From Akkermansiaceae bacterium (GTDB taxonomy: Bacteria; Verrucomicrobiota; Verrucomicrobiia; Verrucomicrobiales; Akkermansiaceae), in assembly GCA_947462535.1 (NCBI GenBank), contig CANHPN010000008.1, positions 4,514-68,513 of the forward strand: DNA of 64,000 bases, written 5' to 3'. Numbering within the stretch: position 1 is the first letter of the stretch; the number at the start of each line of letters is the position of its first letter. A model generated the notes under the pieces. It saw nothing but the letters and a program-made list of their open reading frames with translations, did no database searches and had not been told where the DNA came from. Of this stretch, positions 34,112 to 49,264 are shown piece by piece. Both the position numbers and the translations under genes were made by a program.

Positions 34112-34184
34112 GGCGGTTTTTGGGAGAATCGGACGACTTCGCTTATAGTCCCGATTCCGCCGGGTGTCGAGTCCGCAAGATTAC

Positions 34185-34357: not shown

Positions 34358-34497
34358 GGAAACACGGGCCGGTGGCCTCGGGATCGAATTATTCGCGCCC
34401 GTGCATTGCGAATTCCGGCGTCTGCATCGCGGACCCTGAACCGGTCTTTGCGAGCCCTTTGCAGTCCCTCTGCAACGGGTTGCTTGCCGCGTGCGCC

Positions 34498-34533
34498 GTG
34501 GCGGCGATCACCGGTCGCCGCGAAATCCCGTCC
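34498..34533 (+). repeat. REP-like hairpin, left direct repeat of the TA module
   Basis: GTGG-CGGCGA-TCACCGG-TCGCCG-cgaaatcccgtcc; 34502-34533 identical to 35885-35916. Confidence 0.85.
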
Positions 34534-35819: not shown

Positions 35820-35880
35820 TGGAAGAAGTTGTCGGAAACTAGCCTCGAAGCGCGACGCCGCCAAGCGCCAAGTGTCTCCC

Positions 35881-35916
35881 GTAACGGCGATCACCGGTCG
35901 CCGCGAAATCCCGTCC
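35881..35916 (+). repeat. REP-like hairpin, right direct repeat of the TA module
   Basis: GTAA-CGGCGA-TCACCGG-TCGCCG-cgaaatcccgtcc. Confidence 0.85.
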
Positions 35917-35968
35917 AGTCCTCTTCGCCCCGCCCGGCACCACCACCACTTTCGCGGCGACCCGAAAA

Positions 35969-36017
35969 GTGGCTGCCGGGTCTCGCGGCAGACCGTTGCC
36001 GAGGCGTCTCGCCTCGT
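35969..36017 (+). repeat. REP-like doublet (loops GGTCTCG and CGTCTCG)
   Basis: GTGG-CTGCCG-GGTCTCG-CGGCAG then GTTG-CCGAGG-CGTCTCG-CCTCG; homologous to 39922-39971. Confidence 0.75.
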
Positions 36018-36069
36018 GCCTTCTGGCCCAGCGCATTTCCGCCAAACATGAGGCGCGCTGTTTTCCTCT

Positions 36070-36453
36070 TCAGCGCCCGCCGCGCTTCTTCTCCGCCAGA
36101 ATCCCCTCCGCTCTCTGCAGAATCGCCGCCCGGCAGAACTCCGTCAGGCTCTCCGCCTTCACCAAGCGGCTGGCACGGTCCGCCTTGTCGAATTCCTCCG
36201 CCGTCCGGAAAATCAGGTTCCACGGCGGTGCCTCGGGCTGCACCTCGCGCTGCCGCGCCGTCTCCAAGGTGATCACCCGCTCGATGTCGTCCATGAACTC
36301 CTTCGTCCGCTTGCCCTTCGGCTGGAGGTATTGACGAATCGTGTGCTCGCTCATCTTGAGCTGCACGGCAAGCCACTTCCGATCCTTCCCGATCGCCGCA
36401 AGTCGCCGCCGAATCTCCTGATGCTCGCTCACAATTTGAGCATACCGATACAT
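36070..36453 (-). CDS. Small XRE-like HTH regulator
   Basis: IRRRLAAIGKDRKWLAVQLKMSEHTIRQYL; divergent from the helicase. Confidence 0.6.
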   Translation of the reverse strand: MYRYAQIVSEHQEIRRRLAAIGKDRKWLAVQLKMSEHTIRQYLQPKGKRTKEFMDDIERVITLETARQREVQPEAPPWNLIFRTAEEFDKADRASRLVKAESLTEFCRAAILQRAEGILAEKKRGGR

Positions 36454-36621
36454 CCGTGTTTCGGGAGCTTTCAGGAAGAACCCGCTAATTCAAATCGTGT
36501 TTCAATGCCGTCATTCATTGGATTCAAAGATCTAAAATCAATCGCGCGCGTCATATGGCTTGCGAAATGTCGCTAGTTTTTGTCTTTATCCGCTACAGCA
36601 ACCCGCCTCCGAAACTCGGAT

Positions 36622-39600
36622 TTGACCCTCCTCGACAACATCACCAGCCTGCTCGGCGACGATCTGAAACGCACCGTCACCCCCGGCGCGAAGCTCAAGA
36701 TCGCCGCCTCGTGCTTTTCCATCTACGCCTACGAGGCGCTGAAGAAGGAGCTGGAGCAGATCGATTCCCTCGAATTCATCTTCACCTCGCCCACGTTCGT
36801 CCCGAACGACGTTTCCGACAAACTCCGCAAGGAGCATCGCGAGTTCCACATCCCTAAAATGGAGCGCGAGCGCAGCCTCTACGGCAGCGAATTCGAAGTC
36901 CGCCTGCGCAACGAGCTGACCCAAAAGGCCATCGCCAAGGAATGCGCCGAGTGGATGCGGAAAAAAGCCACCTTCCGCTCCAACAGAGGCCGCGCCCCGA
37001 TGCAGCAGTTTGCCTGCGCCAAAGGACTGGAAAACGAGAGCATTTACATGCCCCTTCACGGTTTCACCGCCGTGGACCTCGGTTACGAAAAGGGCAACGC
37101 TGTCTCCAACTTCGTCAACAAGTTCGACGAGCAGCCGATGACCGGCACCTGGCTCTCCCTCTTCGACCAGATCTGGAACGACCCCGATAAGCTCGAAGAC
37201 GTCACCGACCGTCTCTGCGACCACATCGCCTCGGTTTATCAGGAGAACTCGCCGCAGCGCATCTATTTCCTGATGCTCTACAACATTTTCAGCGAGTTTC
37301 TGGAGGACATTTCCGAAGACGTCCTGCCCAACGACCTCACCGGCTATCAGGACAGCCTGATCTGGCAGAAGCTCTTCAACTTCCAGCGCGATGCCGCCAC
37401 CGGCATCATCAACAAGCTGGAAACCTACAACGGCTGCATCCTCGCCGACAGCGTGGGCCTCGGCAAAACCTTCACCGCCCTCGCTGTCGTCAAATACTAC
37501 GAGTTGCGCAACCGCTCGGTCCTCGTCCTCTGCCCGAAAAAACTCGCGGACAACTGGCTGAACTACAACCGCAACTACGTCACCAACCTCTTCGCCAAGG
37601 ACCGCTTCAACTACGACGTCCTCTGCCACACCGACCTCCTCCGCACCCGCGGCGAGTCGCTCGGCACTGACCTTCGGAAGGTGAACTGGGGAAACTACGA
37701 CCTCGTCGTCATCGATGAATCCCACAACTTCCGCAACAACAACCCCGGCGAGGAGGAGCGCGAATCGCGCTACGCCCGGCTGATGAACAAGGTGGTGAGG
37801 GCCGGTGTGAAAACGAAGGTCCTCATGCTTTCCGCCACCCCGGTGAACAACCGCTTCACCGACCTCCGCAACCAGCTCGCCCTCGCCTACGAAGGCGAGC
37901 CGGACCAACTCCAATCGAAGCTCCGTTCGGAAAAGAACATCGACGAAATCTTCCGCCGCGCCCAGACCGCCTTCAACGCGTGGTCCACCCTGCCACCCGA
38001 GGAGCGCACGGCCACCGCCATTCTCAACGCGCTCGACTTCGATTTCTTCGAGCTGTTGGACAGCGTCACCATCGCCCGCTCGCGCCGCCACATCCAGACC
38101 TTCTACGACACCAAGGATATCGGCGAGTTCCCTGAACGCCTCAAGCCGCTCTCGTTCCACTGCCAGCTCACCCAGCGCGAGGATGTCATCGGCTTCAATG
38201 AAATTTTCAACCGCCTCAGGGCGCTGACCCTCGCCGTCTATGCGCCGCTCGCCTACGTCCATCCGAGCCGCCTGTCAAAATATCAGGACCTCTACGATCC
38301 CGATGGCGACGGACGCACCCGCAACCTCAGCCAGATCGGCCGCGAGGAAGGCATCCAGGCGTTGATGACCGTCAATCTCCTCAAGCGCCTCGAAAGCTCC
38401 GTGCATTCCTTCCGGCTCACGCTGGAGAGCCTCGAAGGAAACCATCAGCGCACCCTTGCGAAAATCGCCGTCTATCAGAAAACAGGCCGCGACGCCACTT
38501 TTGCCGATGTCGCCCCGGCCTTCGCCGAATACGAGCCGGAGGAGGACGATGAAATTCCCATCCCCGACAGCGAAACCATCGGCTCGAAAGTCCAGATCAG
38601 CCTTTCCGACATGGATCTCCCGCGCTGGAAACAGGAACTCGAAGCCGACCTAACGATCATCGGCAGCCTGCTCGATGAAATGCGGAAAGTCACACCGTCC
38701 GATGACGCGAAGCTCCAGCACCTGAAGACCACCGTCCTCAGCAAGCTCGCCTCGCCCATCAATCCGGGGAACAAGAAAGTCCTCATCTTCACCGCCTTCG
38801 CCGACACTGCGGATTACCTCTACGAGCACCTCGCGCCCTATTTCCTAGAAAACCAGAACCTGCACTCCGGCAAAGTCACCGGCTCTAACTCACCGAAATC
38901 CACCCTGCCGAAGAGCTACGATTTCCAATCCCTGCTCACGCTGTTCTCCCCGCGCTCCAAGGAAAAAGCCGCCATCCTGCCCCAGGAAACCGGCGAGATC
39001 GACATCCTCATCGGCACCGACTGCATTTCGGAAGGCCAGAACCTCCAGGACTGCGATTACCTGATCAATTACGACATCCACTGGAATCCGGTGAGGATCA
39101 TCCAGCGCTTCGGGCGGATCGACCGCATCGGCTCGCAGAACAAATTCATCCAGCTCGTCAACTACTGGCCGGACATCACGCTCGACGAATACATCAATCT
39201 CAAGGAGCGCGTCGAGGCCCGCATGATCATCGCCGACGTCACCGCCACCGGCGATGACAACCCGCTCGACTCGAAGTCCAACGATGTCTCCTACCGCCGC
39301 GAGCAACTTCGCCGGCTTCAGGATGAAGTCATCGATCTGGAGGATGTGAAAACCGGCATTTCCATCACCGATCTCGGCCTCAACGATTTCCGGATGGACC
39401 TTCTCAACCACGTGAAGGCCCATGGCGATCTATCGAATTTTCCCAACGGCATGCACGCCGTCGCTCCCGCCGCTCCCGAGCGCGGCCTCCCGCCCGGAGC
39501 CATCTTCGCCCTGCGGAACCGCAACGACGGCGTGAACATCAACCAGCAGAACCGTCTCCATCCCTACTACCTCGTTTACGTCGCGCAGGATGGACAAATC

Positions 39601-39903
39601 CTCGTCAACCACACCGAGCCCAAGCGCCTGCTGGATCTGGTTCGAGCCGCTTGCAAGGAGCGCGGCGAAGCGATTCCCGAAGCCTATCAGCCCTTCAACA
39701 AGGCGACGAAGGATGGCAGGAAAATGGAAACCTATTCCAATCTCCTCAACACCGCCATCCGCTCGATGATAGCGATCAAGGAGGGGAAGGACATCGACAG
39801 CCTCTTCACCGGGGGCCGCACCAGCGCCCTACTCAACACCATCACCGGCATCGAGGACTTCGAACTCATCGCCTTCCTCGTCGTCCAGGAGGTGACCTCA
39901 TGA
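36622..39903 (+). CDS. SNF2-family helicase with N-terminal PLD-like domain lacking an HKD motif
   Basis: ILADSVGLGKT, IDESHNFRN, LSATPVNN, EGQNLQDC, QRFGRIDRIG. TTG start at 36622 inferred (the ORF track starts at 36580). Confidence 0.88.
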   Translation: MTLLDNITSLLGDDLKRTVTPGAKLKIAASCFSIYAYEALKKELEQIDSLEFIFTSPTFVPNDVSDKLRKEHREFHIPKMERERSLYGSEFEVRLRNELTQKAIAKECAEWMRKKATFRSNRGRAPMQQFACAKGLENESIYMPLHGFTAVDLGYEKGNAVSNFVNKFDEQPMTGTWLSLFDQIWNDPDKLEDVTDRLCDHIASVYQENSPQRIYFLMLYNIFSEFLEDISEDVLPNDLTGYQDSLIWQKLFNFQRDAATGIINKLETYNGCILADSVGLGKTFTALAVVKYYELRNRSVLVLCPKKLADNWLNYNRNYVTNLFAKDRFNYDVLCHTDLLRTRGESLGTDLRKVNWGNYDLVVIDESHNFRNNNPGEEERESRYARLMNKVVRAGVKTKVLMLSATPVNNRFTDLRNQLALAYEGEPDQLQSKLRSEKNIDEIFRRAQTAFNAWSTLPPEERTATAILNALDFDFFELLDSVTIARSRRHIQTFYDTKDIGEFPERLKPLSFHCQLTQREDVIGFNEIFNRLRALTLAVYAPLAYVHPSRLSKYQDLYDPDGDGRTRNLSQIGREEGIQALMTVNLLKRLESSVHSFRLTLESLEGNHQRTLAKIAVYQKTGRDATFADVAPAFAEYEPEEDDEIPIPDSETIGSKVQISLSDMDLPRWKQELEADLTIIGSLLDEMRKVTPSDDAKLQHLKTTVLSKLASPINPGNKKVLIFTAFADTADYLYEHLAPYFLENQNLHSGKVTGSNSPKSTLPKSYDFQSLLTLFSPRSKEKAAILPQETGEIDILIGTDCISEGQNLQDCDYLINYDIHWNPVRIIQRFGRIDRIGSQNKFIQLVNYWPDITLDEYINLKERVEARMIIADVTATGDDNPLDSKSNDVSYRREQLRRLQDEVIDLEDVKTGISITDLGLNDFRMDLLNHVKAHGDLSNFPNGMHAVAPAAPERGLPPGAIFALRNRNDGVNINQQNRLHPYYLVYVAQDGQILVNHTEPKRLLDLVRAACKERGEAIPEAYQPFNKATKDGRKMETYSNLLNTAIRSMIAIKEGKDIDSLFTGGRTSALLNTITGIEDFELIAFLVVQEVTS

Positions 39904-39921
39904 GCGCTAGCAGCGCGAAAC

Positions 39922-40015
39922 GTGGCTGCGGCGTCTCGCCGCAGGCCGTGCTGGGAGCGTCTCGCTCCCAGTCTTCGGGCGTAAGCCCCAAGGAGCGGCG
40001 ATCTCCAAACCGCCG
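39922..40015 (+). repeat. Cluster of three REP-like hairpins
   Basis: GTGG-CTGCGG-CGTCTCG-CCGCAG; GTG-CTGGGAG-CGTCTCG-CTCCCAG; GGAG-CGGCG-ATCTCCAAAC-CGCCG. Confidence 0.75.
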
Positions 40016-40141
40016 AAGCCCATGGGTAGCCGATGAAAAGCGCTTTGCTCACCTCATCGTCACCTCATGGACCAAGGCGGATCGGAGTCCGCCTCTCCTT
40101 GATGTGTCATCACTCCAACATGCTACTGCCTAACACCACGC

Positions 40142-40957
40142 ATGTTTTTCTACCCTCCCCAGACCCTGTTCAACCGCGTGCTCCCCAAGAGCAAGATCTA
40201 CGCGCATGCCAAGCCGGGCCGGGCCGTAAAGGAGCTCTTCGTCTCCCGCATCGGCGAGATCGTCTGGAAACACAAACTTTCGCCGGAAACGCTCAAGCTT
40301 CCCGCCCGCCGCGGCATCACGGAAATCCAAGTCTTCGAGATCGCTCTGAAATCCGAAGAATGCGAGGCCGTCCTGCTTCGGACGATCGACAAGGCGATCC
40401 CGTTTCCCATCCTCTTCCAACTCACCCACGCCGACCGCATCCGCTTCGCCGCCTCTTTCAAGCGCCCCAGCGATGCCGATGCCAGCCAATGGGTGATCGA
40501 GGCCTCCTTCCTCTCTGAATGGTTTCATCATTCATCCTTCATACTTCATCCTTTGCCCGTCGCCCTCGATCTGGCAGCGCTCTACGACCAGCTCATCCGC
40601 CGCCACATATCGCTGGCATCGCGTCTCGGTGAATCCATCCGCGACCACGTCGCCCGCCATCTTTCCATCGAGGCGAAACAACGCGAAGCCCAACAACTGG
40701 AGAGCCGACTCGCCAAGGAAAAACAGTTCAACCGCAAGGTGGAATTGAACGCCCAGCTCCGCGCTCTCCGACAGCAGATCCTCGATCTGGATGGGGAGCG
40801 CACGCGCCCTCGCGTGCAGTCTCCGGCGCCCTCGCCGGAGACATGCGTCGATGAATCACCGGAGCTTTCCCCGCCATCCAGACCACCGTGCCGCGAGGGC
40901 GCGACCCGGAACACGCGAGGGCGCGTGTGCTCCCCAAATCAAGAATCCCACCCATGA
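40142..40957 (+). CDS. DUF4391 protein, C-terminally extended through a repeat element
   Basis: FNRVLPKSKIY, I.WKHKL, EIQVFEI, IDKAIPFPILF, EKQFNRKVELN. Confidence 0.82.
   Translation: MFFYPPQTLFNRVLPKSKIYAHAKPGRAVKELFVSRIGEIVWKHKLSPETLKLPARRGITEIQVFEIALKSEECEAVLLRTIDKAIPFPILFQLTHADRIRFAASFKRPSDADASQWVIEASFLSEWFHHSSFILHPLPVALDLAALYDQLIRRHISLASRLGESIRDHVARHLSIEAKQREAQQLESRLAKEKQFNRKVELNAQLRALRQQILDLDGERTRPRVQSPAPSPETCVDESPELSPPSRPPCREGATRNTRGRVCSPNQESHP
40793..40935. mobile_element. 143-bp MITE/REPIN-like element with 24-bp terminal inverted repeats
   Basis: ggggagcgcacgcgccctcgcgtg (40793-40816) versus cacgcgagggcgcgtgtgctcccc (40912-40935), 1 mismatch; internal hairpin gtctccggcg-ccct-cgccggagac. 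Confidence 0.8.
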
Positions 40958-42843
40958 CCAAACTCAAACTCCACACCCCGGACCTCACCGCCGGGAACGT
41001 CGAACGCATCGCCGCGCTGTTTCCTAACTGCGTCACCGAAGCGACGGATGAAACGGGGAAGCTCAAACGCGCCATCGACTTCGATCTACTTAAACAGGAG
41101 CTCTCCGCCGATCTCGTCGAAGGCCCGCAGGAACGCTACCGCCTCGACTGGCCCGGCAAGCGCGAGTCGCTCGCCCTCGCCAACACGCCCGTCGCCCTGA
41201 CGCTGCGTCCGTGCCGCGAGGAGTCGGTGGATTTCGAGAACACCAAAAACCTCTACATCGAGGGCGACAACCTCGACGCACTCAAACTCCTCCAGGAAAC
41301 CTACCTCGGGAAGGTGAAGATGATCTACATCGACCCGCCCTACAACACCGGCAACGACTTCATCTACGATGATGACTTTTCAATGAGTCGTAGCGCATAC
41401 CAAGAAAGATCAGGTGAAGTGGACGAAGACGGTCGAGCCCTTTTTGATGAGGAAAGGTGGAAGCAGAATAACTCCAGCAATGGCCGCTTTCATTCTGACT
41501 GGCTGTCAATGATGTATCCAAGGTTGAAACTGGCGCGAAATTTACTCAGAGACGACGGAGTGATCTTTATTTCTATTGATGATAGCGAAGTGCACAATCT
41601 GCGTCGAATCTGCGATGAAATCTTTGGAGCGCAAAACTTTGTCGCAAATATTGTATGGCAAAAGGTTTTTGCTCCCAAGAATTCCGCAAAATGGTTATCA
41701 GAAGATCACGATCATATTCTGCTTTATGCTCGTTTGAAGGACGAATGGCGTCCCGTTTCTTTGCCTCAAACCGAAGAGATGCTGGCACGCTACAAGAATC
41801 CTGACGCTGATCCACGTGGCGACTGGAAATCTGACGATTTGACCGCGAGGAATCGCTATGACGCCGGCTTATACGCTGTTACCTGTCCTTCTGGACGCAT
41901 TATTGATGGGCCTCCACGTGGGAGATATTGGGTAATTAGCGAGCCTTCTTTTCGGCGATTAGATTCCGAAAATAGAATATGGTGGGGTGAGGATGGTAAT
42001 AATATGCCGCGTCTCAAACGATTCTTATCGGAAGTTAAAGCTGGTAAAACCCCGCAAACGATTTGGCCATGGAACGAGGTTGGTCACACGCAGGATGCCA
42101 AAAAGGAGCTTCTTAAGTATGTGCCTTTTGAAAACACCGAGAATGTCCTGAATTCGGTTAAGCCTATTGCTCTTATCAGGAGAATGCTGCAACTTGCCAC
42201 GAACCATTCAGACAATTGTTTAGTTCTCGATTTCTTTAGTGGAAGCGCCTCAACCGCCCATGCTGTAGTGGCGATGAATGCGGAGGATCATGGTAATCGT
42301 CGCTTTATAGCTGTCCAGATCAACGAGCCGCTGCCGACTGCTGAAACAGGGATTAAAACGATATTTGATATTGGTGCAATGCGTCTTCGAACTCTTCGCG
42401 CCGAATACGCTGAGGGCACAAGAAATCACATGCCCGACATCGGCTTCCGCGTGCTCAAGATCGACAGCTCGAATTTCGCGGACATCCACCGCACGCCGGA
42501 CGAGTTGAACCAGAAGGAACTGGCCTTGCACACCGAGCATATCAAGCCGGAGCGCACGCCGGAGGATTTGTTATTCCAAGTGCTGGTCGATTGGGGCGTG
42601 GATCTTGCGTTGCCGATCACCGAGGAAGTCATCGATGGACAGCAGGTCTTCTTCGTCGATGGCAATGCACTCGCCGCGTGTTTCGACACCGGCCTGACGG
42701 ACGAGTTGATCAAGGCCATCGCCGCCCGCCAGCCGTTGCGCGCCGTTTTCCGCGACGAGAGCTACGGCGATGACAGCACCCGCATCAACGTCGGCCAGTT
42801 GTTCAAACTCCTGAGCCCGAACACCGAACTGAAGTCGCTGTAA
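40954..42843 (+). CDS. mod: Type III R-M methyltransferase (Mod)
   Basis: IEGDNLDALKLL, IYIDPPYNTG, HSDWLSMMYPRL, VLDFFSGSASTAHAV. Confidence 0.93.
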   Translation: MTKLKLHTPDLTAGNVERIAALFPNCVTEATDETGKLKRAIDFDLLKQELSADLVEGPQERYRLDWPGKRESLALANTPVALTLRPCREESVDFENTKNLYIEGDNLDALKLLQETYLGKVKMIYIDPPYNTGNDFIYDDDFSMSRSAYQERSGEVDEDGRALFDEERWKQNNSSNGRFHSDWLSMMYPRLKLARNLLRDDGVIFISIDDSEVHNLRRICDEIFGAQNFVANIVWQKVFAPKNSAKWLSEDHDHILLYARLKDEWRPVSLPQTEEMLARYKNPDADPRGDWKSDDLTARNRYDAGLYAVTCPSGRIIDGPPRGRYWVISEPSFRRLDSENRIWWGEDGNNMPRLKRFLSEVKAGKTPQTIWPWNEVGHTQDAKKELLKYVPFENTENVLNSVKPIALIRRMLQLATNHSDNCLVLDFFSGSASTAHAVVAMNAEDHGNRRFIAVQINEPLPTAETGIKTIFDIGAMRLRTLRAEYAEGTRNHMPDIGFRVLKIDSSNFADIHRTPDELNQKELALHTEHIKPERTPEDLLFQVLVDWGVDLALPITEEVIDGQQVFFVDGNALAACFDTGLTDELIKAIAARQPLRAVFRDESYGDDSTRINVGQLFKLLSPNTELKSL

Positions 42844-42888
42844 ACGTTCCACCTTGCCAAGCGCCCACATTCCTGTATTTGTGGGTGT

Positions 42889-43128
42889 ATGAAAACAACC
42901 ATTGACCTGCCCGACGACGTGTTTTTGAAAGCCAAGATTCTCGCAGCCGAGCGCAGCATGACGTTTAAGGATGTTGTGGTCCAAGGTCTGAAACTCGTCA
43001 CCGAAACGCCTCCTGAAGCCGACCAGAAGAAACGAAAGGCGGCGCTCAAGAGTCTCCTCAAAGCCATGCAGGCGAGCAATACCGAACCGATGGTTCCTCT
43101 GAAACGGGAGGAGATTTATGACCGCTGA
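42889..43128 (+). CDS. Antitoxin (RHH-like)
   Basis: MKTTIDLPDD..; overlaps the PIN gene; upstream inverted repeat cccaca/tgtggg at 42864-42885. Confidence 0.8.
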   Translation: MKTTIDLPDDVFLKAKILAAERSMTFKDVVVQGLKLVTETPPEADQKKRKAALKSLLKAMQASNTEPMVPLKREEIYDR

Positions 43129-43531
43129 GGTGTTTTTGGATTCCAACGTGCTGCTCTATTCCTGTTCGGCGGCACCGGATGATGCCCGCAAACGTCAGGT
43201 GGCAGAGGATCTCATCCTGAACCGCCCGTTCGCGATCTCCGCCCAAGTGCTTCAGGAGTTCATCGCCAACGCGCTTCGCAAGCCACGACTCGGCATCACG
43301 GAATCCAACATCGACGCCACCCTCCAACTTGCGGCCATGGTGCGGGTGCAGCCGGTGACCCATGAGCTGGTCGTTTCCTCAGTAATGCTCCGCCGGCGTT
43401 TTCAGTTGTCGCAGTGGGATGCGACGATCATTGCCGCTGCGGCGGAACTCGGCTGCAAGACCGTTTATTCGGAGGACATGAATGACGGACAGGACTATGC
43501 GGGTGTCCGGGTGGTAAATCCCTTCAAGTAA
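43118..43531 (+). CDS. PIN-domain (VapC-like) toxin
   Basis: VFLDSNVLLY, SAQVLQEF, WDATIIAAA, YSEDM. Confidence 0.9.
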   Translation: MTAEVFLDSNVLLYSCSAAPDDARKRQVAEDLILNRPFAISAQVLQEFIANALRKPRLGITESNIDATLQLAAMVRVQPVTHELVVSSVMLRRRFQLSQWDATIIAAAAELGCKTVYSEDMNDGQDYAGVRVVNPFK

Positions 43532-43549
43532 CTGCGACGACCCGACCTC

Positions 43550-46500
43550 ATGAAACTCAAATTCAAGCACCAAGCCTATCAGGCGGACGCCGTAAAGGCG
43601 GTTGTGGATTGTTTCCAAGGCCAACCGAAATCCAGCGGCCTGAAATACGCCGTCGATCCGGGTGCGGCTCACCCCGCAGGTTTTGTCGCGCTGCCCGGCA
43701 CCGAGGTGGAAGGTTTCGCGAACGCGTCGCTCTCGATTTCCCCGGCGGCCATCCTCAAGAACCTCCAGGAGATCCAGCGCGAGCAGAAGATCCCCGTTTC
43801 TGAGAGTCTCAAGGTCACGGACGTTTCCAAGCTGAACTTCGACATCGAGATGGAGACCGGCACGGGCAAGACCTACTGCTACATCAAGACGATGTTCGAG
43901 CTGAACGCCAAATACGGCTGGAGCAAGTTCATCGTCGTGGTGCCAAGCATCGCCATCCGCGAAGGCGTCTCGAAATCCTTCGAGGTGATGGCCGAGCATT
44001 TCCTCGAACAATACGGCAAGCGCGCCCGCCCGTTCATCTACAACTCCAAGCAGCTCCACCAATTGGAAAGCTTTTCCTCGGACGCGGGGATCAACGTGAT
44101 GATCATCAACCAGCAGGCCTTCGCCACCCGTGGTGAGGATTCGCGCCGGATCTATCTGGAGCTCGATGATTTCCAGTCGCGCAAGCCGATCGATGTCATC
44201 CGCAAGAATCGCCCCATTCTGATTCTCGACGAGCCGCAGAAGTTGGAAGGCGCTGCCACGGTCACCAAGCTCAAGGAGTTCGATCCGCTGATGATCCTGC
44301 GCTACTCCGCCACGCACAAGACGGAGCACAACAAGGTCTATCGACTCGACGCGCTGGACGCCTACAACCAGAAGTTGGTGAAAAAGATCGCCGTGCGCGG
44401 CATCGCGGCGAGAGGACTCGCGGGCACCAATGCCTATGTTTACCTCGACTCGATTCGGATCTCGCCAAACAAACCGCCGGAAGCGGTGGTCGAGTTCGAG
44501 GTGATGCAGGGCACCGGCATCAAGCGGGTGCGGAAGATCCTCGGCAAGGGCGATGACTTGCACGCGCTTTCGGGAAACCTCGAACAATATCGCGACGGCT
44601 ACGTCGTTTCCGAGATCAACGCGAACGACGAGATCGTGATGTTCACCAACGGCCTCGTGCTGTGCGCACGGAAGGCGCTGGGTGACGTGAACGAATCCCT
44701 GCTGCGCCGCATCCAGATCCGCGAGGCGGTGAAGGCGCACTTCGAGAAGGAGCAGCGTTTGTTTTCCAAAGGCATCAAGGTGCTCAGCCTGTTCTTCATC
44801 GATGAGGTGGCGAAATACCGCCAATACACGCCGGACGGCCATGACCCCGGTGAGTATGCGAAGATTTTCGAAGAGGAATACGATCTGCGCCTCAACGAGG
44901 TGCTGACCATCGAGGACACGCCGTATAACAACTACCTCAAGGCGATCCGGACCTCGGTCACGCACGATGGCTATTTCTCGCAGGACAAGAAGACGAGGCG
45001 TTTCGTCGATTCCAAATCGGCTGCCAGAGGCGAGACCGCCGGCGAGGCGGACGATGTGGACGCCTACGATCTGATCCTGAAGGACAAGGAGACGCTGTTG
45101 TCGTTTCCCGGGCCGAACGATGACGATCGAACCCACCTGAAGAAGCAGGTGCGCTTCATCTTTTCCCACTCCGCCCTGCGCGAGGGATGGGACAATCCGA
45201 ACGTGTTTGTCATTTGCGCGCTAAAGCACAGCGACAACACGGTGACGCGCCGCCAGGAAGTGGGCCGCGGCATGCGGCTGGCAGTGGATTCCAACGGCGA
45301 GCGCGTCGATGATCCGGCCATCGTCCATCAGGTGAACGTGCTGACCGTGGTGGCGAGCGAGAGCTACAAGGACTTCGTTGCGGGGCTCCAGTCGGACATC
45401 AGCAAATCCATTTCCTCCCGCCCGCGTGAGGCCAATGCCGGATACTTCAATGGCAAGCTGCTCAAGACGGAAACGGGTGAGGTTGAGGTCACGGCAAAAC
45501 TCGCGAAGCAGATCGAATTCTATCTGATCGAGAACCGCTACGTGGATTTCGACCACCACATCACCACCGCCTATCACGAAGCGAAGGAGAAAGGCGAACT
45601 CGCAAAACTGCCGCCCGAGCTGGAACCACTCAAGGAACCGGTGTTTGCATTGATCGACAGCGTCTTCAGCGATGCCGACATCCCGCAGCCGGAAAATGAA
45701 TTCACGCTCAAGGAGAACCGGCTGAATGCGAACTTTGAAAAGAAGGAGTTCCAAGAGCTGTGGCACAAGATTAACCACAAGGCGGTCTATTCCGTGCACT
45801 TCGATTCCGAGGAACTCATCGCGAAGAGCATCAAGACCATCGACAAGGAGCTGAACATCGCGCCGCTGCAATATGTCGTCACCGCCGGTGAACAAAGGGA
45901 CGAGACGAGTTATGAAGAACTCCAGCAGGGTGAGGGATTCGTCTTGAGGGAGAACCGCACCGAGCAACTCGCGACTTCCGTGCTCTCGGTGGTGAAATAT
46001 GATCTCATCGGCAAGATCGCCGAAGCCACGGTGCTCACCCGGAGCACCGTTTCACGCATTCTATCCGGCATCAACGTCGCCGTCTTCGGCCAATACAAGC
46101 GAAACCCGGAGGATTTCATCCTGAAGGCCGGCAAGCTGATCAACGAACAGAAAGCGACGGTGATCGTCGAGCATCTGGAATACGACACCACCACCGGTGT
46201 CCACGAAACGCCCGATATCTTCACCCAGCGCAAGGAAGACCTCGGCAAGGGATTCAAGGCGGAGCATCACATTTATGATTACGTTTTCACCGATTCGACG
46301 ATCGAGCGGAACTTCGTCGGCGAGCTCGACGCCAGCGCGGAAGTGGTCGTTTACGCCAAGCTGCCAAAGACCTTTTTCATCCCCACGCCGGTCGGTAATT
46401 ACAACCCGGATTGGGCCATCGCCTTCAAACAGGACAAGGTGAAACACATCTACTTCATCGCCGAAACCAAGGGTGACATGTCGTCGATGCAGCTCCGCAA

Positions 46501-46615
46501 GATCGAGGCTTCCAAGATCGAATGCGCCCGCAAGTTCTTCGCGAAGATCACGAACGAGCAGGTCCGCTACGAGGTCGTGGACGGATACGGGAAGCTGATG
46601 GAGCTGGTGAAATGA
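43550..46615 (+). CDS. res: Type III restriction endonuclease (Res)
   Basis: EMETGTGKTY, ILDEPQ, LRYSATH, LREGWDNPNV, QEVGRGMRL, YNPDWAIAF...ETKG. Confidence 0.94.
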   Translation: MKLKFKHQAYQADAVKAVVDCFQGQPKSSGLKYAVDPGAAHPAGFVALPGTEVEGFANASLSISPAAILKNLQEIQREQKIPVSESLKVTDVSKLNFDIEMETGTGKTYCYIKTMFELNAKYGWSKFIVVVPSIAIREGVSKSFEVMAEHFLEQYGKRARPFIYNSKQLHQLESFSSDAGINVMIINQQAFATRGEDSRRIYLELDDFQSRKPIDVIRKNRPILILDEPQKLEGAATVTKLKEFDPLMILRYSATHKTEHNKVYRLDALDAYNQKLVKKIAVRGIAARGLAGTNAYVYLDSIRISPNKPPEAVVEFEVMQGTGIKRVRKILGKGDDLHALSGNLEQYRDGYVVSEINANDEIVMFTNGLVLCARKALGDVNESLLRRIQIREAVKAHFEKEQRLFSKGIKVLSLFFIDEVAKYRQYTPDGHDPGEYAKIFEEEYDLRLNEVLTIEDTPYNNYLKAIRTSVTHDGYFSQDKKTRRFVDSKSAARGETAGEADDVDAYDLILKDKETLLSFPGPNDDDRTHLKKQVRFIFSHSALREGWDNPNVFVICALKHSDNTVTRRQEVGRGMRLAVDSNGERVDDPAIVHQVNVLTVVASESYKDFVAGLQSDISKSISSRPREANAGYFNGKLLKTETGEVEVTAKLAKQIEFYLIENRYVDFDHHITTAYHEAKEKGELAKLPPELEPLKEPVFALIDSVFSDADIPQPENEFTLKENRLNANFEKKEFQELWHKINHKAVYSVHFDSEELIAKSIKTIDKELNIAPLQYVVTAGEQRDETSYEELQQGEGFVLRENRTEQLATSVLSVVKYDLIGKIAEATVLTRSTVSRILSGINVAVFGQYKRNPEDFILKAGKLINEQKATVIVEHLEYDTTTGVHETPDIFTQRKEDLGKGFKAEHHIYDYVFTDSTIERNFVGELDASAEVVVYAKLPKTFFIPTPVGNYNPDWAIAFKQDKVKHIYFIAETKGDMSSMQLRKIEASKIECARKFFAKITNEQVRYEVVDGYGKLMELVK

Positions 46616-46776
46616 ATTTCCTAACGAGCCAAACCATGCCCCTGCACCCCGCCGCGCAACAGATGATCCGGAAAGTCGAAGCGCTTTCCGGCAGGCCGGT
46701 GCATGTGGCGGAGGATGCGGGATTGCAGGTGATGCCTAAAGGGGCTAAATGGTCGGAAATTTTTCAAAATTGCTGA
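46612..46776 (+). pseudogene. Truncated 5' fragment of gene X (copy A), coupled to the res stop
   Basis: ATG 46612 overlaps res TGA; 46636-46734 is a 99-bp repeat of 48701-48799 with 7 mismatches. Confidence 0.75.
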
Positions 46777-46832
46777 AAATTCATCAAATTTAGCGTGATT
46801 TCATCGAATTAAGGGTAGAGAGTCCTTTTGCC

Positions 46833-48059
46833 ATGCTCCGCCAACTGACCCTTGAGAACTTCTGCTCCTTCCGCGAGCGCGGCGATCTGACGCTCACCAC
46901 TGGAGCCAAGACGCCGACCGACGATTCCTTCGTGGAGTCGCGCTGCGGAGACAAGATCACGGTGTTATGTGGTGTCTTCGGCGCGAATGCCTCGGGCAAG
47001 ACCAACTTGCTCAAGGCGCTGGCGTTCCTGAATTTTTTCATCCGGCACTCCTACCGCAACCTCAAGCCGGACGCGCCGATCCCGGTGGATCCGTTCATCG
47101 ATGGCGATGGCAAGCCGGTGAAACTCTCCGTCGAATTTGAAGGGCAGGGGCGGCTCTACCGCTACGAGCTGACGCTCACCGCTGCCGCCGTGGTCGAGGA
47201 ACGCCTCCAACAACGCTCGGATGACACCCGTTCCTTCCGCACGCTCTTGCTGAGAAAAGCCGGGAAACGCGGCCCGCTGCTGTCCCAACCGGAGGATTTC
47301 ACCGATCTCGATGCTCTCCGCGCCTTGCTGAAGGACCGCCCGAACGCTTCGGTGCTCTCCGCCGGGCTGGTCACTGGGCGGCCGGAATTCAACAAGGTTC
47401 TCGCCTCCTTCGGCCGCTTCGAGACGAATGTGGATCGTTTCGGCAAGGCGGAGATCGTACAGGGAAACCGCGCTTCCGAGGTCATCGATTGCGCCCGCTA
47501 TTTTCAGGAAAACCCGCATTTCAAGGACGATGTCGAGGATCGCCTGAAGCGCGCCGATCTGGGAATCGACGCGTTCTTTATCCGGGATGTGGAGGTGCCG
47601 GATGCGGAAACCGGGAAGATGCACACGGTTCCCATCCCCTTCGTCGCGCACCAGTCGGGCAAGCGGCGCTTCGAGCTGCCGCTCACGCATGAGTCGTCGG
47701 GAACGAAGCGTTTGTTCGTGCTGTTGGGAGCGTTTCTCCCGGTCCTCACGGAAGGTGGCATGGCGGTGATCGATGAAATGGAGTCCGACCTCCACCCGCA
47801 TCTCATTCCGCTGCTGCTGGACCTGTTTGTGGATGCGGCGACGAATCCCAAGCGTGCCCAACTCCTCTTCACCTGCCACCACGTCGAGATCCTCAACCAG
47901 CTCTCCAAAGAACAAATCGTCCTGGTGCAGAAGGATGCCGACTGCGTGAGCAGCCTGCGCCGCCTCGTGGATCTCAAAGGCGTGAAGCGGGAGGAAAACT
48001 TCTTCGCCAACTACAACGCCGGCCGCTACGAGGCGGTGCCATCCCCGTCGCTTTTCTGA
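46833..48059 (+). CDS. AAA/ABC-type ATPase (AAA_21; RloA/AbiLi-like)
   Basis: LENFCSF, FGANASGKTNLL, ESSGTKRL, IDEMESDLHP, QLLFTCH. Confidence 0.88.
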   Translation: MLRQLTLENFCSFRERGDLTLTTGAKTPTDDSFVESRCGDKITVLCGVFGANASGKTNLLKALAFLNFFIRHSYRNLKPDAPIPVDPFIDGDGKPVKLSVEFEGQGRLYRYELTLTAAAVVEERLQQRSDDTRSFRTLLLRKAGKRGPLLSQPEDFTDLDALRALLKDRPNASVLSAGLVTGRPEFNKVLASFGRFETNVDRFGKAEIVQGNRASEVIDCARYFQENPHFKDDVEDRLKRADLGIDAFFIRDVEVPDAETGKMHTVPIPFVAHQSGKRRFELPLTHESSGTKRLFVLLGAFLPVLTEGGMAVIDEMESDLHPHLIPLLLDLFVDAATNPKRAQLLFTCHHVEILNQLSKEQIVLVQKDADCVSSLRRLVDLKGVKREENFFANYNAGRYEAVPSPSLF

Positions 48060-48061
48060 AC

Positions 48062-48583
48062 ATGGCGCGGCGCGAAAGCATCATCCTGTTTGGAGAGGGC
48101 AAGACGGAGGCCGTTTTTCTCCAGCATTTGCACACGCTCTACCGGGATGGGATCGCCGCCCGCGTGAAGGTGGATGCCGGCCAGGGAGGCTCGCCCAAAC
48201 AAGTGGCGGAGCGCCTCATCAAAAAGCACCTCAATCTCGGAGCCTACGACCGCAGCCTGCTCTTGATCGACAGTGATCTGCCGCTGGATGAAATCCCGGC
48301 AAGCTTGCTAGTGAAGCATCGCATCACGCTGGTCACTTCCATCCCCTGCTTGGAGGGAGTTTTCCTGAGTCTCCTGGACGACCGACCACCTGCGAAAGAG
48401 CGCCATCAGTCCCGAAACTGGAAACGACGCTTTCAAAAGAATCATCTGGGAACGGACCGGAACGCGGAAATCGTTTCCAAACTCCGCGGCAAGTGCCCGT
48501 CTTTGTTTCCCAAGCAACTCGTCGAATCGACTCGATCCTCGCAACCAACCCTGCACAACATCCTTGAGTTCCTTGGGCTTTGA
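48062..48583 (+). CDS. RloB-like protein
   Basis: ILFGEGKTEAVFL, LLIDSD, SIPCLE (Toprim-like RloB pattern); 2 bp after the ATPase. Confidence 0.75.
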   Translation: MARRESIILFGEGKTEAVFLQHLHTLYRDGIAARVKVDAGQGGSPKQVAERLIKKHLNLGAYDRSLLLIDSDLPLDEIPASLLVKHRITLVTSIPCLEGVFLSLLDDRPPAKERHQSRNWKRRFQKNHLGTDRNAEIVSKLRGKCPSLFPKQLVESTRSSQPTLHNILEFLGL

Positions 48584-48700
48584 TGTTCTCCCTATTTCAT
48601 AAACTTTCGAATTGCGTGGGAAAGCTAATTAAAAAAGTCCTCTAAACTCCCGTCACGCCCGCTGTCGCGTGATGACCAAGCGACCAACAAAACCATTTTC

Positions 48701-48994
48701 ATGCCCCTGCACCCCGCCGCCCAGCAGATGATCCGGAAAGTCGAAGCGCTTTCCGGCAGGCCCGTGCATGTGGCGGAGGATGCGGATTTGAAAGTGATGG
48801 CGGCGATCACCACCGCCCGGGGCAGCGCTCCGGCGCATTTCCTGCGCTACCGGCCGGGGACGCGGGCGGTGGATTATCTGGTCGCCTATCAGCTTGGGTT
48901 TCTGGTGCGCTTGTTTTCCTGTCCGGCAGAGAATCGCTGGGATGTGGTGTCGAGCGCCGCCGAGCAGGCGCACGCGATGTTCGGGGAGGGGTAG
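48701..48994 (+). pseudogene. Gene X copy B (97 aa), probably truncated at the adjacent REP pair
   Basis: MPLHPAAQQMIRKVEALSGRPVHV...ARGSAPAHFLRY...YQLGFLVRLF; stop falls 1 bp before the REP at 48996. Confidence 0.65.
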
Positions 48995-49189: not shown

Positions 49190-49264
49190 TGGTGCACGCT
49201 GCAGGGTTCGAACCTGCGACCCCATCCGTGTGAAGGATGTGCTCTACCACTGAGCTAAGCATGC
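49190..49264 (-). tRNA. tRNA-Val(CAC)
   Basis: Reverse complement GCATGCTTAGCTCAGTGGTAGAGCA-CATCC-TTCACAC-GGATG-GGGTCGCAGGTTCGAACCCTGCAGCGTGCACCA. Confidence 0.95.

What the first reader, a model, noticed from the sequence alone, without database searches (positions are those of the whole stretch)
36070..46776. Extended type III R-M cluster: HTH / SNF2 helicase - DUF4391 - Mod - Res - gene X
Seen: a 1,090-aa SNF2 helicase with intact motifs and an N-terminal PLD-like segment without HKD, then DUF4391, Mod and Res on one strand. There are ATGA couplings at DUF4391/mod (40954-40957) and res/gene X (46612-46615). Known: classical type III systems need only Mod and Res. I am not aware of a mechanism for the SNF2+DUF4391 pair, although the neighbourhood recurs in bacteria. 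Inference: a 4-5 component restriction-like defence system in which helicase and DUF4391 add a second layer or regulate Res, with gene X as an unrecognised fifth member.
Basis: partly seen in the sequence, partly recalled or inferred. Interest (0 to 1): 0.68.

Follow-up and report, generated by a model that had tools for sequence, protein, structure and literature searches.

The report
Four-gene type III restriction cassette
This is a widespread but unstudied four-gene version of a type III restriction-modification system (SNF2 motor, a small protein of unknown fold, methylase, nuclease), here carrying inserted toxin modules; the proposed fifth gene is only a broken gene fragment.

Summary
The helicase, DUF4391, mod and res genes are real, intact and on one strand. 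The linkage is far beyond chance. In 80 DUF4391-seeded loci from several phyla, an SNF2 helicase lies directly upstream in 72 of 74 informative loci, and Mod and Res each lie downstream in 53 of 54. In res-seeded metagenome loci, 28 of 31 informative loci carry the helicase. I read this as one conserved four-gene type III-like cassette. I found no paper on its function.

DUF4391 folds confidently (pLDDT 97) into an alpha/beta domain plus a helical hairpin, with no structural match in PDB or BFVD.

Gene X is a duplicated 5' fragment of a 247-aa neighbouring gene, created when an AbiL-like gene pair inserted. The upstream "HTH" ORF has no family match and occurs only in the closest relatives.

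A VapBC-like toxin-antitoxin pair sits between mod and res. The DUF4391/mod ATGA overlap results from read-through of a 145-bp MITE-like insert. The cassette's gene junctions are recurrent insertion slots for toxin and abortive-infection modules.

The mechanism is inferred, not shown: SNF2 plus DUF4391 act as an accessory ATP-driven module for Mod-Res. Novelty: a new variant of a known kind.

The parts
36070..36453 (-). I judge it not to be part of the conserved cassette.
   Evidence: No Pfam, PADLOC or NCBIfam match. Homologues occur only in L003 and L020. No conserved ORF family lies upstream of the helicase in 85 loci.
36622..39903 (+). SNF2-family ATPase/translocase, 1093 aa from TTG 36622 (the ORF is open from TTG 36580). 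It has a conserved N-terminal domain of about 250 aa lacking an HKD motif, and a conserved C-terminal domain of about 215 aa.
   Evidence: Pfam SNF2-rel_dom, Helicase_C and ResIII. PADLOC C3a139 'HKD+Snf2' 2.7e-120 over residues 194-1103. The motifs are at least 90% conserved in 58 homologues. The start was inferred from homologues. Neither terminal domain has a PDB sequence match.
40142..40957 (+). DUF4391 protein. The core is residues 1-219 (40142-40798); a 52-aa tail is added by read-through of an inserted element.
   Evidence: Pfam PF14335 5.3e-55. Most homologues are about 218 aa. AF2 pLDDT 97.2, pTM 0.90. No Foldseek match in PDB or BFVD.
40524..40551 (+). Imperfect heptanucleotide tract, (TTCATCC) x 4, inside a DUF4391 loop. 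It encodes FHHSSFILHP.
   Evidence: It is the only such tract in the 64-kb window, with 0 expected by chance. The same unit occurs in or beside DUF4391 in L009, L040, L049 and L066.
40792..40936 (.). MITE-like 145-bp element with 25-nt terminal inverted repeats, inserted at the 3' end of DUF4391.
   Evidence: Inverted repeat I3, 96% complementary. The repeat arms encode the GERTRPRV and TRGRVCSP parts of the tail, which are shared by P0001 and P0019. A variant with a different interior is seen in run X4.
40954..42843 (+). Type III Mod methyltransferase (beta-class; the DPPY motif precedes FxGxG). Probably makes m6A.
   Evidence: PADLOC MTase_III 1.6e-215; Pfam N6_N4_Mtase 5.5e-34. Motifs seen. 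GC is low, 0.52 against about 0.60, and Mod correlates only weakly with the other three genes, which points to exchange of the specificity region.
42889..43128 (+). VapB-like antitoxin candidate, 79 aa. Embedded cargo.
   Evidence: It overlaps the PIN gene start by 11 nt. Homologous AT+PIN pairs occur in L002, L004, L020 and L066 at different positions in the cassette. It has no Pfam match. The N-terminus MKTTIDLPDD is typical of VapB-type antitoxins (from my own knowledge).
43118..43531 (+). PIN-domain (VapC-like) toxin, 137 aa. Embedded cargo.
   Evidence: Pfam PIN 1.1e-10. PIN is the commonest cargo family in the cassette's insertion slots, with 12 of 87 cargo ORFs.
43550..46615 (+). Type III Res: an SF2 ATPase plus a C-terminal PD-(D/E)XK endonuclease.
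   Evidence: PADLOC REase_III E=0 over the full length; Pfam ResIII and RE_endonuc 7.4e-35. Motifs TGTGKT, DEPQ, QEVGRGMR, and NPD...AETK. NCBIfam PRK15483 scores 376 bits, below its 564 cut-off.
46612..46776 (+).
   Evidence: tblastn with full-length X from L004 matches only residues 1-33 here. The 100-nt direct repeat 46635-46734 / 48700-48799 is 93% identical.
46833..48583 (+). AbiLi-like AAA_21 ATPase (46833-48059) plus AbiLii/RloB-like protein (48062-48583). This is an inserted abortive-infection-type gene pair.
   Evidence: PADLOC AbiLi 1.1e-67 and AbiLii 3.9e-07; Pfam AAA_21 7e-34 and RloB 1.8e-06. The pair is flanked by the 100-nt direct repeat. A contig in run X4 joins 46613 to 48700 without the pair.
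48701..48994 (+). Second, also truncated copy of gene X (residues 1-89 of 247).
   Evidence: tblastn gives 96.6% identity over residues 1-89 and nothing beyond. No other X sequence is present in the window.
49190..49264 (-). tRNA-Val(CAC), marking the right edge of the island. Housekeeping genes (dnaG, psd, glnD) follow.
   Evidence: ARAGORN; Pfam on the flanking ORFs.

Best explanation
The locus encodes one conserved four-gene type III-like restriction-modification cassette, in the order SNF2 ATPase, DUF4391, Mod, Res. Selfish or second-line modules have been inserted into it: a vapBC-like pair between mod and res, and an AbiL-like pair in the 5' end of the downstream gene.

Well supported by conserved motifs and family matches, though not assayed: Mod is an intact beta-class methyltransferase that should mark short asymmetric host sites. 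Res is an intact SF2 ATPase with a PD-(D/E)XK nuclease that should cut unmarked DNA. The SNF2 protein keeps every motor motif, has no recognisable nuclease motif, and is the most conserved protein of the four.

Inferred: SNF2 and DUF4391 form an obligate accessory module. DUF4391, through its helical hairpin, acts as an adaptor or co-regulator. It tethers the SNF2 dsDNA translocase to Mod-Res, or loads and activates Mod-Res on DNA. ATP-driven translocation by SNF2 then supplies site-to-site communication or clears DNA-bound proteins, and Res makes the cut. This logic parallels MANTIS, where an ATPase (MtsA) and a small partner (MtsB) load the methyltransferase and a second ATPase-nuclease restricts.

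My confidence that the four genes form one system is about 0.65. My confidence in the specific loader/adaptor mechanism is about 0.25.
For: Linkage.
- SNF2 lies directly upstream on the same strand in 72 of 74 DUF4391-seeded genome loci. Mod lies downstream in 53 of 54 and Res in 53 of 54. The loci come from Verrucomicrobiota, Proteobacteria, Planctomycetota, Acidobacteriota and Desulfobacterota.
- Reciprocally, 28 of 31 res-seeded metagenome loci with at least 5 kb upstream of mod carry the helicase, down to 48% Res identity.
- The arrangement holds at 32% DUF4391 identity (L082) and on E. coli plasmids.
- Where the order is rotated (L149, L153), the SNF2-DUF4391 pair and the Mod-Res pair each stay together.

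Shared history. Pairwise distance matrices of SNF2, DUF4391 and Res correlate at r = 0.81, p = 0.001. Mod correlates only at 0.39-0.47, as expected if specificity regions are exchanged.

Selection. Median identity to the window is 74% for SNF2, 65% for Res, 53% for DUF4391 and 52% for Mod. All motor motifs are at least 90% conserved.

No separate effector. The helicase has no HKD motif, and none of the 10 ORFs scanned in this window matches PLD or HKD.

DUF4391. A confident model shows an alpha/beta domain plus a long antiparallel helical hairpin, which fits an interaction role.

Co-decay. Res is damaged in 4 of 6 loci with a split SNF2, but in only 2 of about 48 with an intact SNF2 (read off).

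Expression. Metatranscriptome contigs at least 99% identical cover res and abiLi, and contigs about 95% identical cover the helicase and the mod/vapB junction.

Precedent. MANTIS, bioRxiv 10.64898/2026.09.23.753747.
Against: - There is no experimental or interaction evidence for any contact between SNF2, DUF4391, Mod and Res.
- Classical type III enzymes work with Mod and Res alone.
- 3 of 31 res-seeded loci show no helicase within 5-6.7 kb.
- Rotated gene orders show that the cassette is built of two separable two-gene modules.
- The DUF4391 fold gives no functional clue.
- Correlated distances can arise from physical linkage alone.
- The co-decay signal may reflect assembly quality.
- Metatranscriptome contigs can contain carried-over DNA.
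Confidence: 0.6

Rival explanations
1. These are two independent neighbouring systems: an ordinary two-subunit type III R-M, plus a separate SNF2+DUF4391 defence (or anti-plasmid) pair that merely travels with it in defence islands.
For: Classical type III systems need only Mod and Res. The rotated order Mod-Res-SNF2-DUF4391 in L149 and L153 shows two separable modules. Unrelated defence modules are often inserted between the cassette genes. SNF2 helicases occur in several other defence systems, as the PADLOC matches to DrmD, BrxH, ZorD and HmaA show.
Against: The linkage is nearly obligate in both directions (72/74, 53/54, 28/31) and persists across phyla and down to about 30-50% identity. 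Mere island neighbours do not keep a fixed order and tight or overlapping junctions: gaps are 60 nt or less in 54 of 76 helicase-DUF4391 junctions and 52 of 72 DUF4391-mod junctions. SNF2+DUF4391 have no recognisable effector domain of their own. No SNF2+DUF4391 pair was seen without Mod-Res where the flanks were long enough, apart from the decayed loci L020 and L054.
Confidence: 0.2
2. SNF2+DUF4391 are a control or safety module rather than part of the attack. They limit self-cleavage, for example by removing Res-Mod from host DNA after replication or during establishment. Alternatively they switch the system on and off, with the heptanucleotide tract in DUF4391 acting as a phase-variation switch.
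For: Type III systems hemimethylate and need protection against autoimmunity (established knowledge; discussed in the MANTIS preprint). SNF2 enzymes such as RapA displace proteins from DNA, and RapA is among the closest solved relatives. A unique (TTCATCC)n tract lies in DUF4391, the same unit recurs in or beside DUF4391 in other loci, and P0107 has an in-frame +3-unit allele.
Against: The tract is imperfect here and absent from most homologues: 122 of 124 loci lack it. No frameshifted allele was found. No regulator-type domain is detectable in either protein. Such extreme conservation of a 1093-aa motor seems excessive for a purely regulatory role.
Confidence: 0.12
3. This is the first reader's five-component system, with gene X (and the HTH ORF) as functional members.
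For: The ATGA overlap of res with the X ORF is real. It is also present in L004 and L020, where a longer X follows res.
Against: In this window X is a fragment of about 41 codons, duplicated by the AbiL-pair insertion. The second copy stops at residue 89 of 247. Full-length X was found in only 2 of 163 loci, both Akkermansiaceae. The HTH ORF occurs in only 2 loci, and no conserved upstream ORF family exists.
Confidence: 0.03

Closest known systems
Classical type III restriction-modification (EcoP1I, EcoP15I, StyLTI)
   Same: The Mod is a beta-class methyltransferase with DPPY before FxGxG. The Res has an SF2 ATPase and a C-terminal PD-(D/E)XK nuclease. mod precedes res. The type-specific PADLOC models match over the full length.
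   Different: This clade is almost always preceded by two further conserved genes, SNF2 and DUF4391. Its Res scores below the NCBIfam equivalog cut-off for the classical enzyme, 376 against 564 bits. The gene junctions serve as insertion slots for other modules.
MANTIS / Gao_RL (BREX-related type 2), bioRxiv 10.64898/2026.09.23.753747
   Same: It is a four-gene methylation-based system with two ATPases, a small enigmatic partner protein, a hemimethylating adenine methyltransferase and a helicase-nuclease effector. This is the best precedent for an ATPase plus small protein acting on the methyltransferase.
   Different: None of the proteins are homologous by family. MANTIS uses a DUF499 AAA+ ATPase, a small DUF3870 protein (called DUF3780 in PMC12839542) and a PLD-SF2 effector. 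This cassette uses an SNF2 ATPase, DUF4391 and a PD-(D/E)XK Res, and its helicase lacks the HKD motif.
Class 1 DISARM (DrmD SNF2 helicase + DrmMI + DrmABC)
   Same: An SNF2-family helicase is paired with an adenine methyltransferase in a methylation-based defence. DrmD models are the next-best named matches for the helicase (PADLOC 9.9e-35; NCBIfam 1e-42).
   Different: None of the 10 ORFs scanned between 36070 and 48583 matches DrmA, DrmB or DrmC, and the flanking genes scanned are housekeeping or TA-like. The DrmD equivalog score is 146.6 against a cut-off of 610. The methyltransferase here is of the type III Mod class, and a Res nuclease is present.
'HKD+Snf2' protein C3a139, an accessory gene of type III CRISPR-Cas loci (Shah et al. 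2018, PMC6546367)
   Same: It is the best PADLOC model for the helicase, 2.7e-120, covering the motor and the C-terminal region.
   Different: The model's N-terminal HKD part does not align with this protein, which has no HxK motif. No CRISPR array is present in the window.
R-linked ORFs and guard toxins embedded in type I R-M loci (rloA-H, PrrC in EcoprrI)
   Same: Toxin, Abi and ATPase modules are inserted between R-M genes and co-oriented with them. An RloB-domain pair and AAA_21 ATPases are among the cargo.
   Different: That precedent is from type I hsd loci (from my own knowledge). Here the host operon is the four-gene type III-like cassette, and no functional coupling has been tested.

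Membership tests
Type III restriction-modification | Mod subunit: a beta-class N6/N4 DNA methyltransferase with catalytic motif IV (DPPY) before the AdoMet motif I (FxGxG) | tested here: met
   IDPPYNT at about residue 126 and DFFSGSAST at about residue 425. Pfam N6_N4_Mtase 5.5e-34 and PADLOC MTase_III 1.6e-215 over the full length.
Type III restriction-modification | Res subunit: an SF2 helicase-like ATPase fused to a C-terminal PD-(D/E)XK endonuclease | tested here: met
   TGTGKT, DEPQ, SAT and QEVGRGMR motifs, plus NPD...AETK. Pfam ResIII and RE_endonuc 7.4e-35; PADLOC REase_III E=0.
Type III restriction-modification | Res reaches the curated equivalog score of the classical enterobacterial enzyme (NCBIfam PRK15483) | tested here: not met
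   376.4 bits against a cut-off of 564. This is a separate clade, although RefSeq names the E. coli plasmid homologue 'type III restriction-modification system endonuclease'.
Type III restriction-modification | The system is composed of Mod and Res only | tested here: not met
   SNF2 and DUF4391 accompany this Mod-Res clade in 28 of 31 res-seeded loci. Mod and Res each follow DUF4391 in 53 of 54 DUF4391-seeded loci.
Type III restriction-modification | Hemimethylation of an asymmetric site; ATP-dependent cleavage that needs two inversely oriented unmodified sites | not testable with these tools
   This needs methylome sequencing and cleavage assays.
DISARM class 1 | The core genes drmA, drmB and drmC are present alongside drmD and drmMI | tested here: not met
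   None of the 10 ORFs scanned between 36070 and 48583 matches DrmA, DrmB or DrmC. The flanking ORFs scanned are dnaJ-like, dnaG, psd, glnD and TA-like genes.
DISARM class 1 | The helicase reaches the DrmD equivalog score | tested here: not met
   NF038317 scores 146.6 bits against 610. NF038318 scores 104.8 against 950.
MANTIS / Gao_RL (BR type 2) | A DUF499 AAA+ ATPase (MtsA) and the small MtsB protein (DUF3870 in the MANTIS preprint, DUF3780 in PMC12839542) | tested here: not met
   No such Pfam or PADLOC match for any of the 10 ORFs scanned. The small protein here is DUF4391.
MANTIS / Gao_RL (BR type 2) | An effector with an active HKD/PLD nuclease fused to an SF2 helicase | tested here: not met
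   The helicase has no HxK(x)4D motif and no PLDc match. PADLOC PLD_Helicase matches only the motor's C-lobe, residues 698-894.
   No Pfam match even at E = 10, and no PDB sequence match with a 45-sequence profile.
DUF4391 (Pfam PF14335) | Pfam gathering score | tested here: met
   187.3 bits against 29.9. The family has 1534 clusters at 50% identity with E <= 1e-3.
VapBC type II toxin-antitoxin (embedded pair) | A PIN-domain toxin preceded by a small overlapping antitoxin gene | tested here: met
   PIN scores 42.6 bits against 23.6. The 79-aa upstream ORF overlaps it by 11 nt. The antitoxin family itself is not confirmed by any HMM.

The most novel reading that the evidence does not exclude
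SNF2+DUF4391+Mod+Res would be a mechanistically distinct class of ATP-dependent restriction enzyme. A second motor (SNF2) and an adaptor of a previously unseen fold (DUF4391) would load, activate or drive a type III Mod-Res. In addition, the defined junctions of the operon (DUF4391|mod, mod|res, res|downstream) would act as docking slots. Toxin-antitoxin and abortive-infection modules (PIN, Fic, DarTG, SIR2-HerA, OLD, AbiL) would be captured there and co-expressed as guard or back-up layers.
Probability: 0.3. Interest if true: 0.8.

Novelty: new variant of a known kind. Interest (0 to 1): 0.6.

Why it matters
DUF4391 is a large family (1534 clusters at 50% identity), and in the loci examined it is found almost only inside this cassette. 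The cassette spans many phyla, human-gut metagenomes and E. coli plasmids. Even so, I found no paper that addresses its function.

If the SNF2 motor and DUF4391 are required, classical type III R-M would be only one end of a spectrum. This would add a second case, after MANTIS, in which an extra ATPase and a small partner govern a hemimethylating restriction system.

The confident but unmatched DUF4391 model is a candidate new fold. The cassette also shows clearly how R-M operons collect toxin and Abi modules at fixed junctions.

Natural E. coli plasmid copies make the question directly testable.

Tried and rejected
- Literature. Seven searches (DUF4391; C3a139; SNF2 with type III R-M, PLD and anti-phage; Mod/Res/defence island; phage-plasmid/SSU5; DrmD/accessory; COG numbers) found no description of this cassette. 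The two papers that contain 'DUF4391' mention it only in an enrichment table or apparently by mistake for DUF7941. The BREX-related (BR), Hma and MANTIS systems are DUF499-centred and are not this system.
- First DUF4391 model. A 26-sequence alignment gave a useless model, pLDDT 51. It was repeated with 131 diverse sequences.
- Fold search. Foldseek against PDB and BFVD gave nothing significant; the best E-values were 0.08 and 0.1, with TM no higher than 0.26. A PD-(D/E)XK reading of DUF4391 (conserved E61, D83, K107) was considered and dropped. The predicted strand and helix order does not fit that fold, and no ExK motif exists.
- PLD fold of the helicase N-terminus. No Pfam or PDB sequence support was found. 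A search for bona fide HKD proteins among the cargo, to use in a profile-profile comparison, found none.
- Helicase C-terminal domain. No PDB sequence match.
- Fusion proteins as Rosetta stones. P0154 is an internal-deletion fusion in a decayed locus. P0208 is DUF4391 plus a 500-aa region without a family match. Neither is informative.
- Conserved upstream regulator. None was found in 85 loci.
- Promoter and terminator scan. The counts were no better than in shuffled sequence.
- Frameshifted alleles at the heptamer tract. None were found.

Full report
**What is in the sequence**

On the + strand between 36.5 and 48.6 kb lie, in order:
- an SNF2-family ATPase (ORF 36580-39903);
- DUF4391 (40142-40957);
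- a type III Mod (40954-42843);
- a 79-aa ORF (42889-43128) overlapping a PIN-domain ORF (43118-43531);
- a type III Res (43550-46615);
- an AAA_21/AbiLi-like ATPase (46833-48059) and an RloB/AbiLii-like protein (48062-48583).

A 127-aa ORF with no family match lies divergently upstream at 36070-36453. tRNA-Val (49190-49264, - strand), followed by dnaG, psd and glnD, marks the return to housekeeping genes. On the left, a dnaJ-like gene and a PIN_10/HTH_66-like pair precede the locus. The window comes from a lake-water metagenome. The closest relatives are Akkermansiaceae and Luteolibacter MAGs.

**Check of the observation**

The four main genes are intact.
- The helicase carries GLGKT, DESH, SATP and QRFGRIDRIGS.
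- Mod carries DPPY before FxGxG.
- Res carries Walker A, DEPQ, motif VI and a PD...ExK nuclease motif.

The helicase has no ATG start. Homologous ORFs begin at the residue aligned to TTG 36622, which gives 1093 aa. Both ATGA overlaps exist at the stated coordinates.

1. mod and res are separated by a VapBC-like pair.
2. The DUF4391/mod overlap is secondary. Most homologues are about 218 aa. Here a 145-bp element with 25-nt inverted ends (40792-40816 / 40912-40936, 96% complementary) is inserted at the end of the gene. It is read through and adds 52 residues whose GERTRPRV and TRGRVCSP parts are encoded by the repeat arms.
3. The N-terminal 250 aa of the helicase have no HxK motif and no Pfam or PDB match. 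The PADLOC 'HKD+Snf2' model aligns only from residue 194. 'PLD-like' therefore remains unproven, although the conserved stretch PLHGFTAVDLGYxxGNAVSN looks like a degenerate HKD signature.

**Is the gene association real?**

I seeded a search of one genome per species with a DUF4391 alignment and obtained 80 loci at 46-89% identity. They come from Verrucomicrobiota, Beta-, Gamma- and Alphaproteobacteria, Planctomycetota, Acidobacteriota and Desulfobacterota.
- An SNF2 helicase lies directly upstream on the same strand in 72 of the 74 loci with at least 1 kb upstream.
- Mod and Res each lie downstream in 53 of the 54 loci with at least 6.5 kb downstream.
- The order is always SNF2-DUF4391-Mod-Res.

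As a reciprocal test I seeded a metagenome scan with a Res alignment and obtained 80 loci at 48-80% Res identity, many from human gut. Of the 31 loci with at least 5 kb upstream of mod, 28 carry the helicase. Two loci have the rotated order Mod-Res-SNF2-DUF4391.

The arrangement persists at 32% DUF4391 identity (L082). It also occurs in E. coli: 10 of 5426 complete genomes carry it, mostly on plasmids of about 110-160 kb. RefSeq annotates the genes only generically there, as helicase-related or SNF2-related protein, DUF4391 domain-containing protein, site-specific DNA-methyltransferase, and type III R-M endonuclease.

Pairwise distance matrices of SNF2, DUF4391 and Res correlate at r = 0.81 (Mantel p = 0.001). 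Mod correlates only at 0.39-0.47. The mod region also has lower GC, 0.52 against about 0.60. This is what exchange of specificity regions would produce. The helicase is the most conserved protein, with median identity of 74% across phyla, against 65% for Res, 53% for DUF4391 and 52% for Mod.

**DUF4391**

The family is large: 1534 clusters at 50% identity with E <= 1e-3. With a 131-sequence alignment AlphaFold2 gives pLDDT 97.2 and pTM 0.90. The model has an alpha/beta domain (residues 1-155) followed by a long antiparallel helical hairpin (166-218). Foldseek finds nothing significant in PDB (best E 0.08, TM no higher than 0.22) or in BFVD (best E 0.1). A profile search of PDB sequences finds nothing either. 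Residues nearly invariant across the family are P5, K16, W42, L46, T50, E61, L79, D83, P89, K107, P139, L147, Y148, R172 and Q195. I see no catalytic signature. The hairpin suggests an interaction or dimerisation role, which is inference.

**Gene X and the HTH ORF**

In the related locus L004 a 247-aa protein follows res. Its first 33 residues match 46636-46734 in the window, and its first 89 residues match 48701-48967. Nothing else in the window matches it. A 100-nt direct repeat (46635-46734 / 48700-48799, 93% identical) flanks the AbiL-like pair. A contig from another lake metagenome joins 46613 directly to 48700 without that pair.

Gene X is therefore a duplicated 5' fragment created by insertion of the AbiL-like module, and the second copy is also truncated. 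Full-length X was found only in two Akkermansiaceae loci and has no Pfam match. The HTH ORF recurs only in L003 and L020. No conserved small ORF family lies upstream of the helicase in 85 loci. Neither gene belongs to the conserved system.

**Insertion slots**

The gap between DUF4391 and mod exceeds 500 nt in 17 of 72 loci. The gap between mod and res exceeds 500 nt in 29 of 60. About nine loci carry a 136-aa PIN ORF between the helicase and DUF4391.

The inserted ORFs match these families:
- PIN (12);
- SLFN/AlbA_2 with HATPase_c_4 (9);
- Fic (8);
- AAA_15 and AAA_21 ATPases (6 each);
- DUF1016/YhcG nucleases (5);
- ParE, RloB, OLD-TOPRIM, DUF2130 and a deaminase.

Elsewhere DarT with a Macro-domain protein sits between mod and res, and SIR2 with a HerA-like protein sits between DUF4391 and mod. 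The window's vapBC-like pair and AbiL-like pair are two instances of this pattern. In another population the same vapBC segment appears downstream of res, at contig level only. This resembles the R-linked ORFs and PrrC in type I loci (from my own knowledge). Whether the cargo guards the R-M system or merely hitchhikes is untested.

**How it most likely works**

Supported by conserved motifs: Mod marks host DNA and Res cuts unmarked DNA. The SNF2 protein is an active motor under strong purifying selection and has no nuclease motif of its own.

Inferred: SNF2 and DUF4391 are an obligate accessory module. DUF4391 tethers or co-regulates. SNF2 supplies ATP-driven translocation for loading or activating Mod-Res, for communication between sites, or for clearing DNA-bound proteins.

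The nearest mechanistic precedent is MANTIS/Gao_RL. There an AAA+ ATPase and a small partner load the methyltransferase, and a second ATPase-nuclease restricts (bioRxiv 10.64898/2026.09.23.753747). The proteins are not homologous to those here.

Weak supporting observations:
- Res is damaged in 4 of 6 loci where the helicase is split, against 2 of about 48 where it is intact. I read this off, and assembly quality is a confounder.
- Metatranscriptome contigs at least 99% identical cover res and abiLi, and contigs about 95% identical cover the helicase and the mod/vapB junction. DNA carry-over is possible.

The rivals are two independent neighbouring systems, or a control/anti-autoimmunity/phase-switch module. 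They are listed with the tests that would separate them.

**Comparison with known systems and novelty**

The Mod-Res pair passes the sequence tests for type III R-M. It fails two criteria: the classical Res equivalog score (376 against 564 bits) and the two-gene composition.
- It is not DISARM. No DrmA, DrmB or DrmC match was found among the ORFs scanned, and the DrmD score is 147 against 610.
- It is not MANTIS or a BREX-related (BR) system. There is no DUF499 or DUF3780/3870 protein and no HKD motif.
- It is not CRISPR-linked. No array is present.

Seven literature searches found no paper that treats this cassette or the function of DUF4391. Subscription journals are largely absent from the library, so prior description elsewhere cannot be excluded. 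I rate it a new variant of a known kind, with interest 0.6. It is widespread, has a conserved and probably new-fold component, is directly testable in E. coli, and its mechanism is still inferential.

Noticed in passing
window 40524-40551: An imperfect heptanucleotide tract, (TTCATCC) x 4, lies inside a DUF4391 loop and is translated as FHHSSFILHP. It is the only such tract in the 64-kb window, with 0 expected by chance. The same unit occurs in the DUF4391 loop of L009, as 7 perfect copies at the DUF4391 3' end in L066 (10651-10699), and at the DUF4391 5' end in L040 and L049. Protein P0107 has three extra units in frame. It could be a phase-variation tract or a recombination scar.
   Followed up: partly
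window 40792-40936: A 145-bp MITE-like element with 25-nt terminal inverted repeats is inserted in frame at the end of DUF4391. The same encoded tail occurs in relatives P0001, P0002 and P0019. A variant with a different interior is seen in run X4.
   Followed up: partly
A contig in run X4 places the same segment (42832-43531) downstream of res, so the pair seems to move between slots.
   Followed up: partly
window 46635-46734 and 48700-48799: A 100-nt direct repeat (93% identical) flanks the AbiLi/AbiLii-like pair. A contig in run X4 shows the empty site, joining 46613 to 48700.
   Followed up: yes
window 34648-35894 (- strand), with repeats at 34496-34533 and 35879-35916: A PIN_10-like ORF and a weak HTH_66-like ORF form another TA-like pair. 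The pair is flanked by 38-nt direct repeats (95% identical) that contain a GC-rich hairpin.
   Followed up: no
window 35994-36020 and 39921-39947; also 35908-35989: REP-like GC-rich hairpin elements (core CGGCGTCTCGCCG) lie in the intergenic regions on both sides of the helicase gene. A contig of run X1 itself lacks 80 nt at 35908-35989, so these elements vary within the population.
   Followed up: no
window 34183-34355: A tandem array with a 22-nt period and about 5.5 copies (consensus CCGAACATCGCGTAACGGGGGT) lies between the dnaJ-like gene and the PIN_10-like gene. Its function is unknown.
   Followed up: no
window 48996-49067: A strong inverted repeat (28-nt arms, 93% complementary, 16-nt loop) lies just after the truncated second copy of gene X. 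Many metagenome contigs break at its edges (about 49037-49071), so it may be a repeated element or an island boundary.
   Followed up: no
L007, L016, L017, L019, L023, L028, L043, L044 (between the helicase and DUF4391): A conserved 136-aa PIN-domain ORF exactly fills a gap of about 425 nt between the helicase and DUF4391 in several loci. No antitoxin ORF is visible beside it.
   Followed up: no
L083 (E. coli plasmid pLAO18, NZ_OP242248.1, 3154-12215): E. coli IncFIB plasmids of about 110 kb carry the complete four-gene cassette without cargo. It sits next to repA, a LAGLIDADG homing endonuclease gene and a 5'-3' exonuclease gene. This is a convenient natural model.
   Followed up: partly
window 63135-63348: An 87-nt tandem repeat, 2.5 copies at 92% identity, lies inside an ORF near the end of the window. 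It is unrelated to the finding.
   Followed up: no
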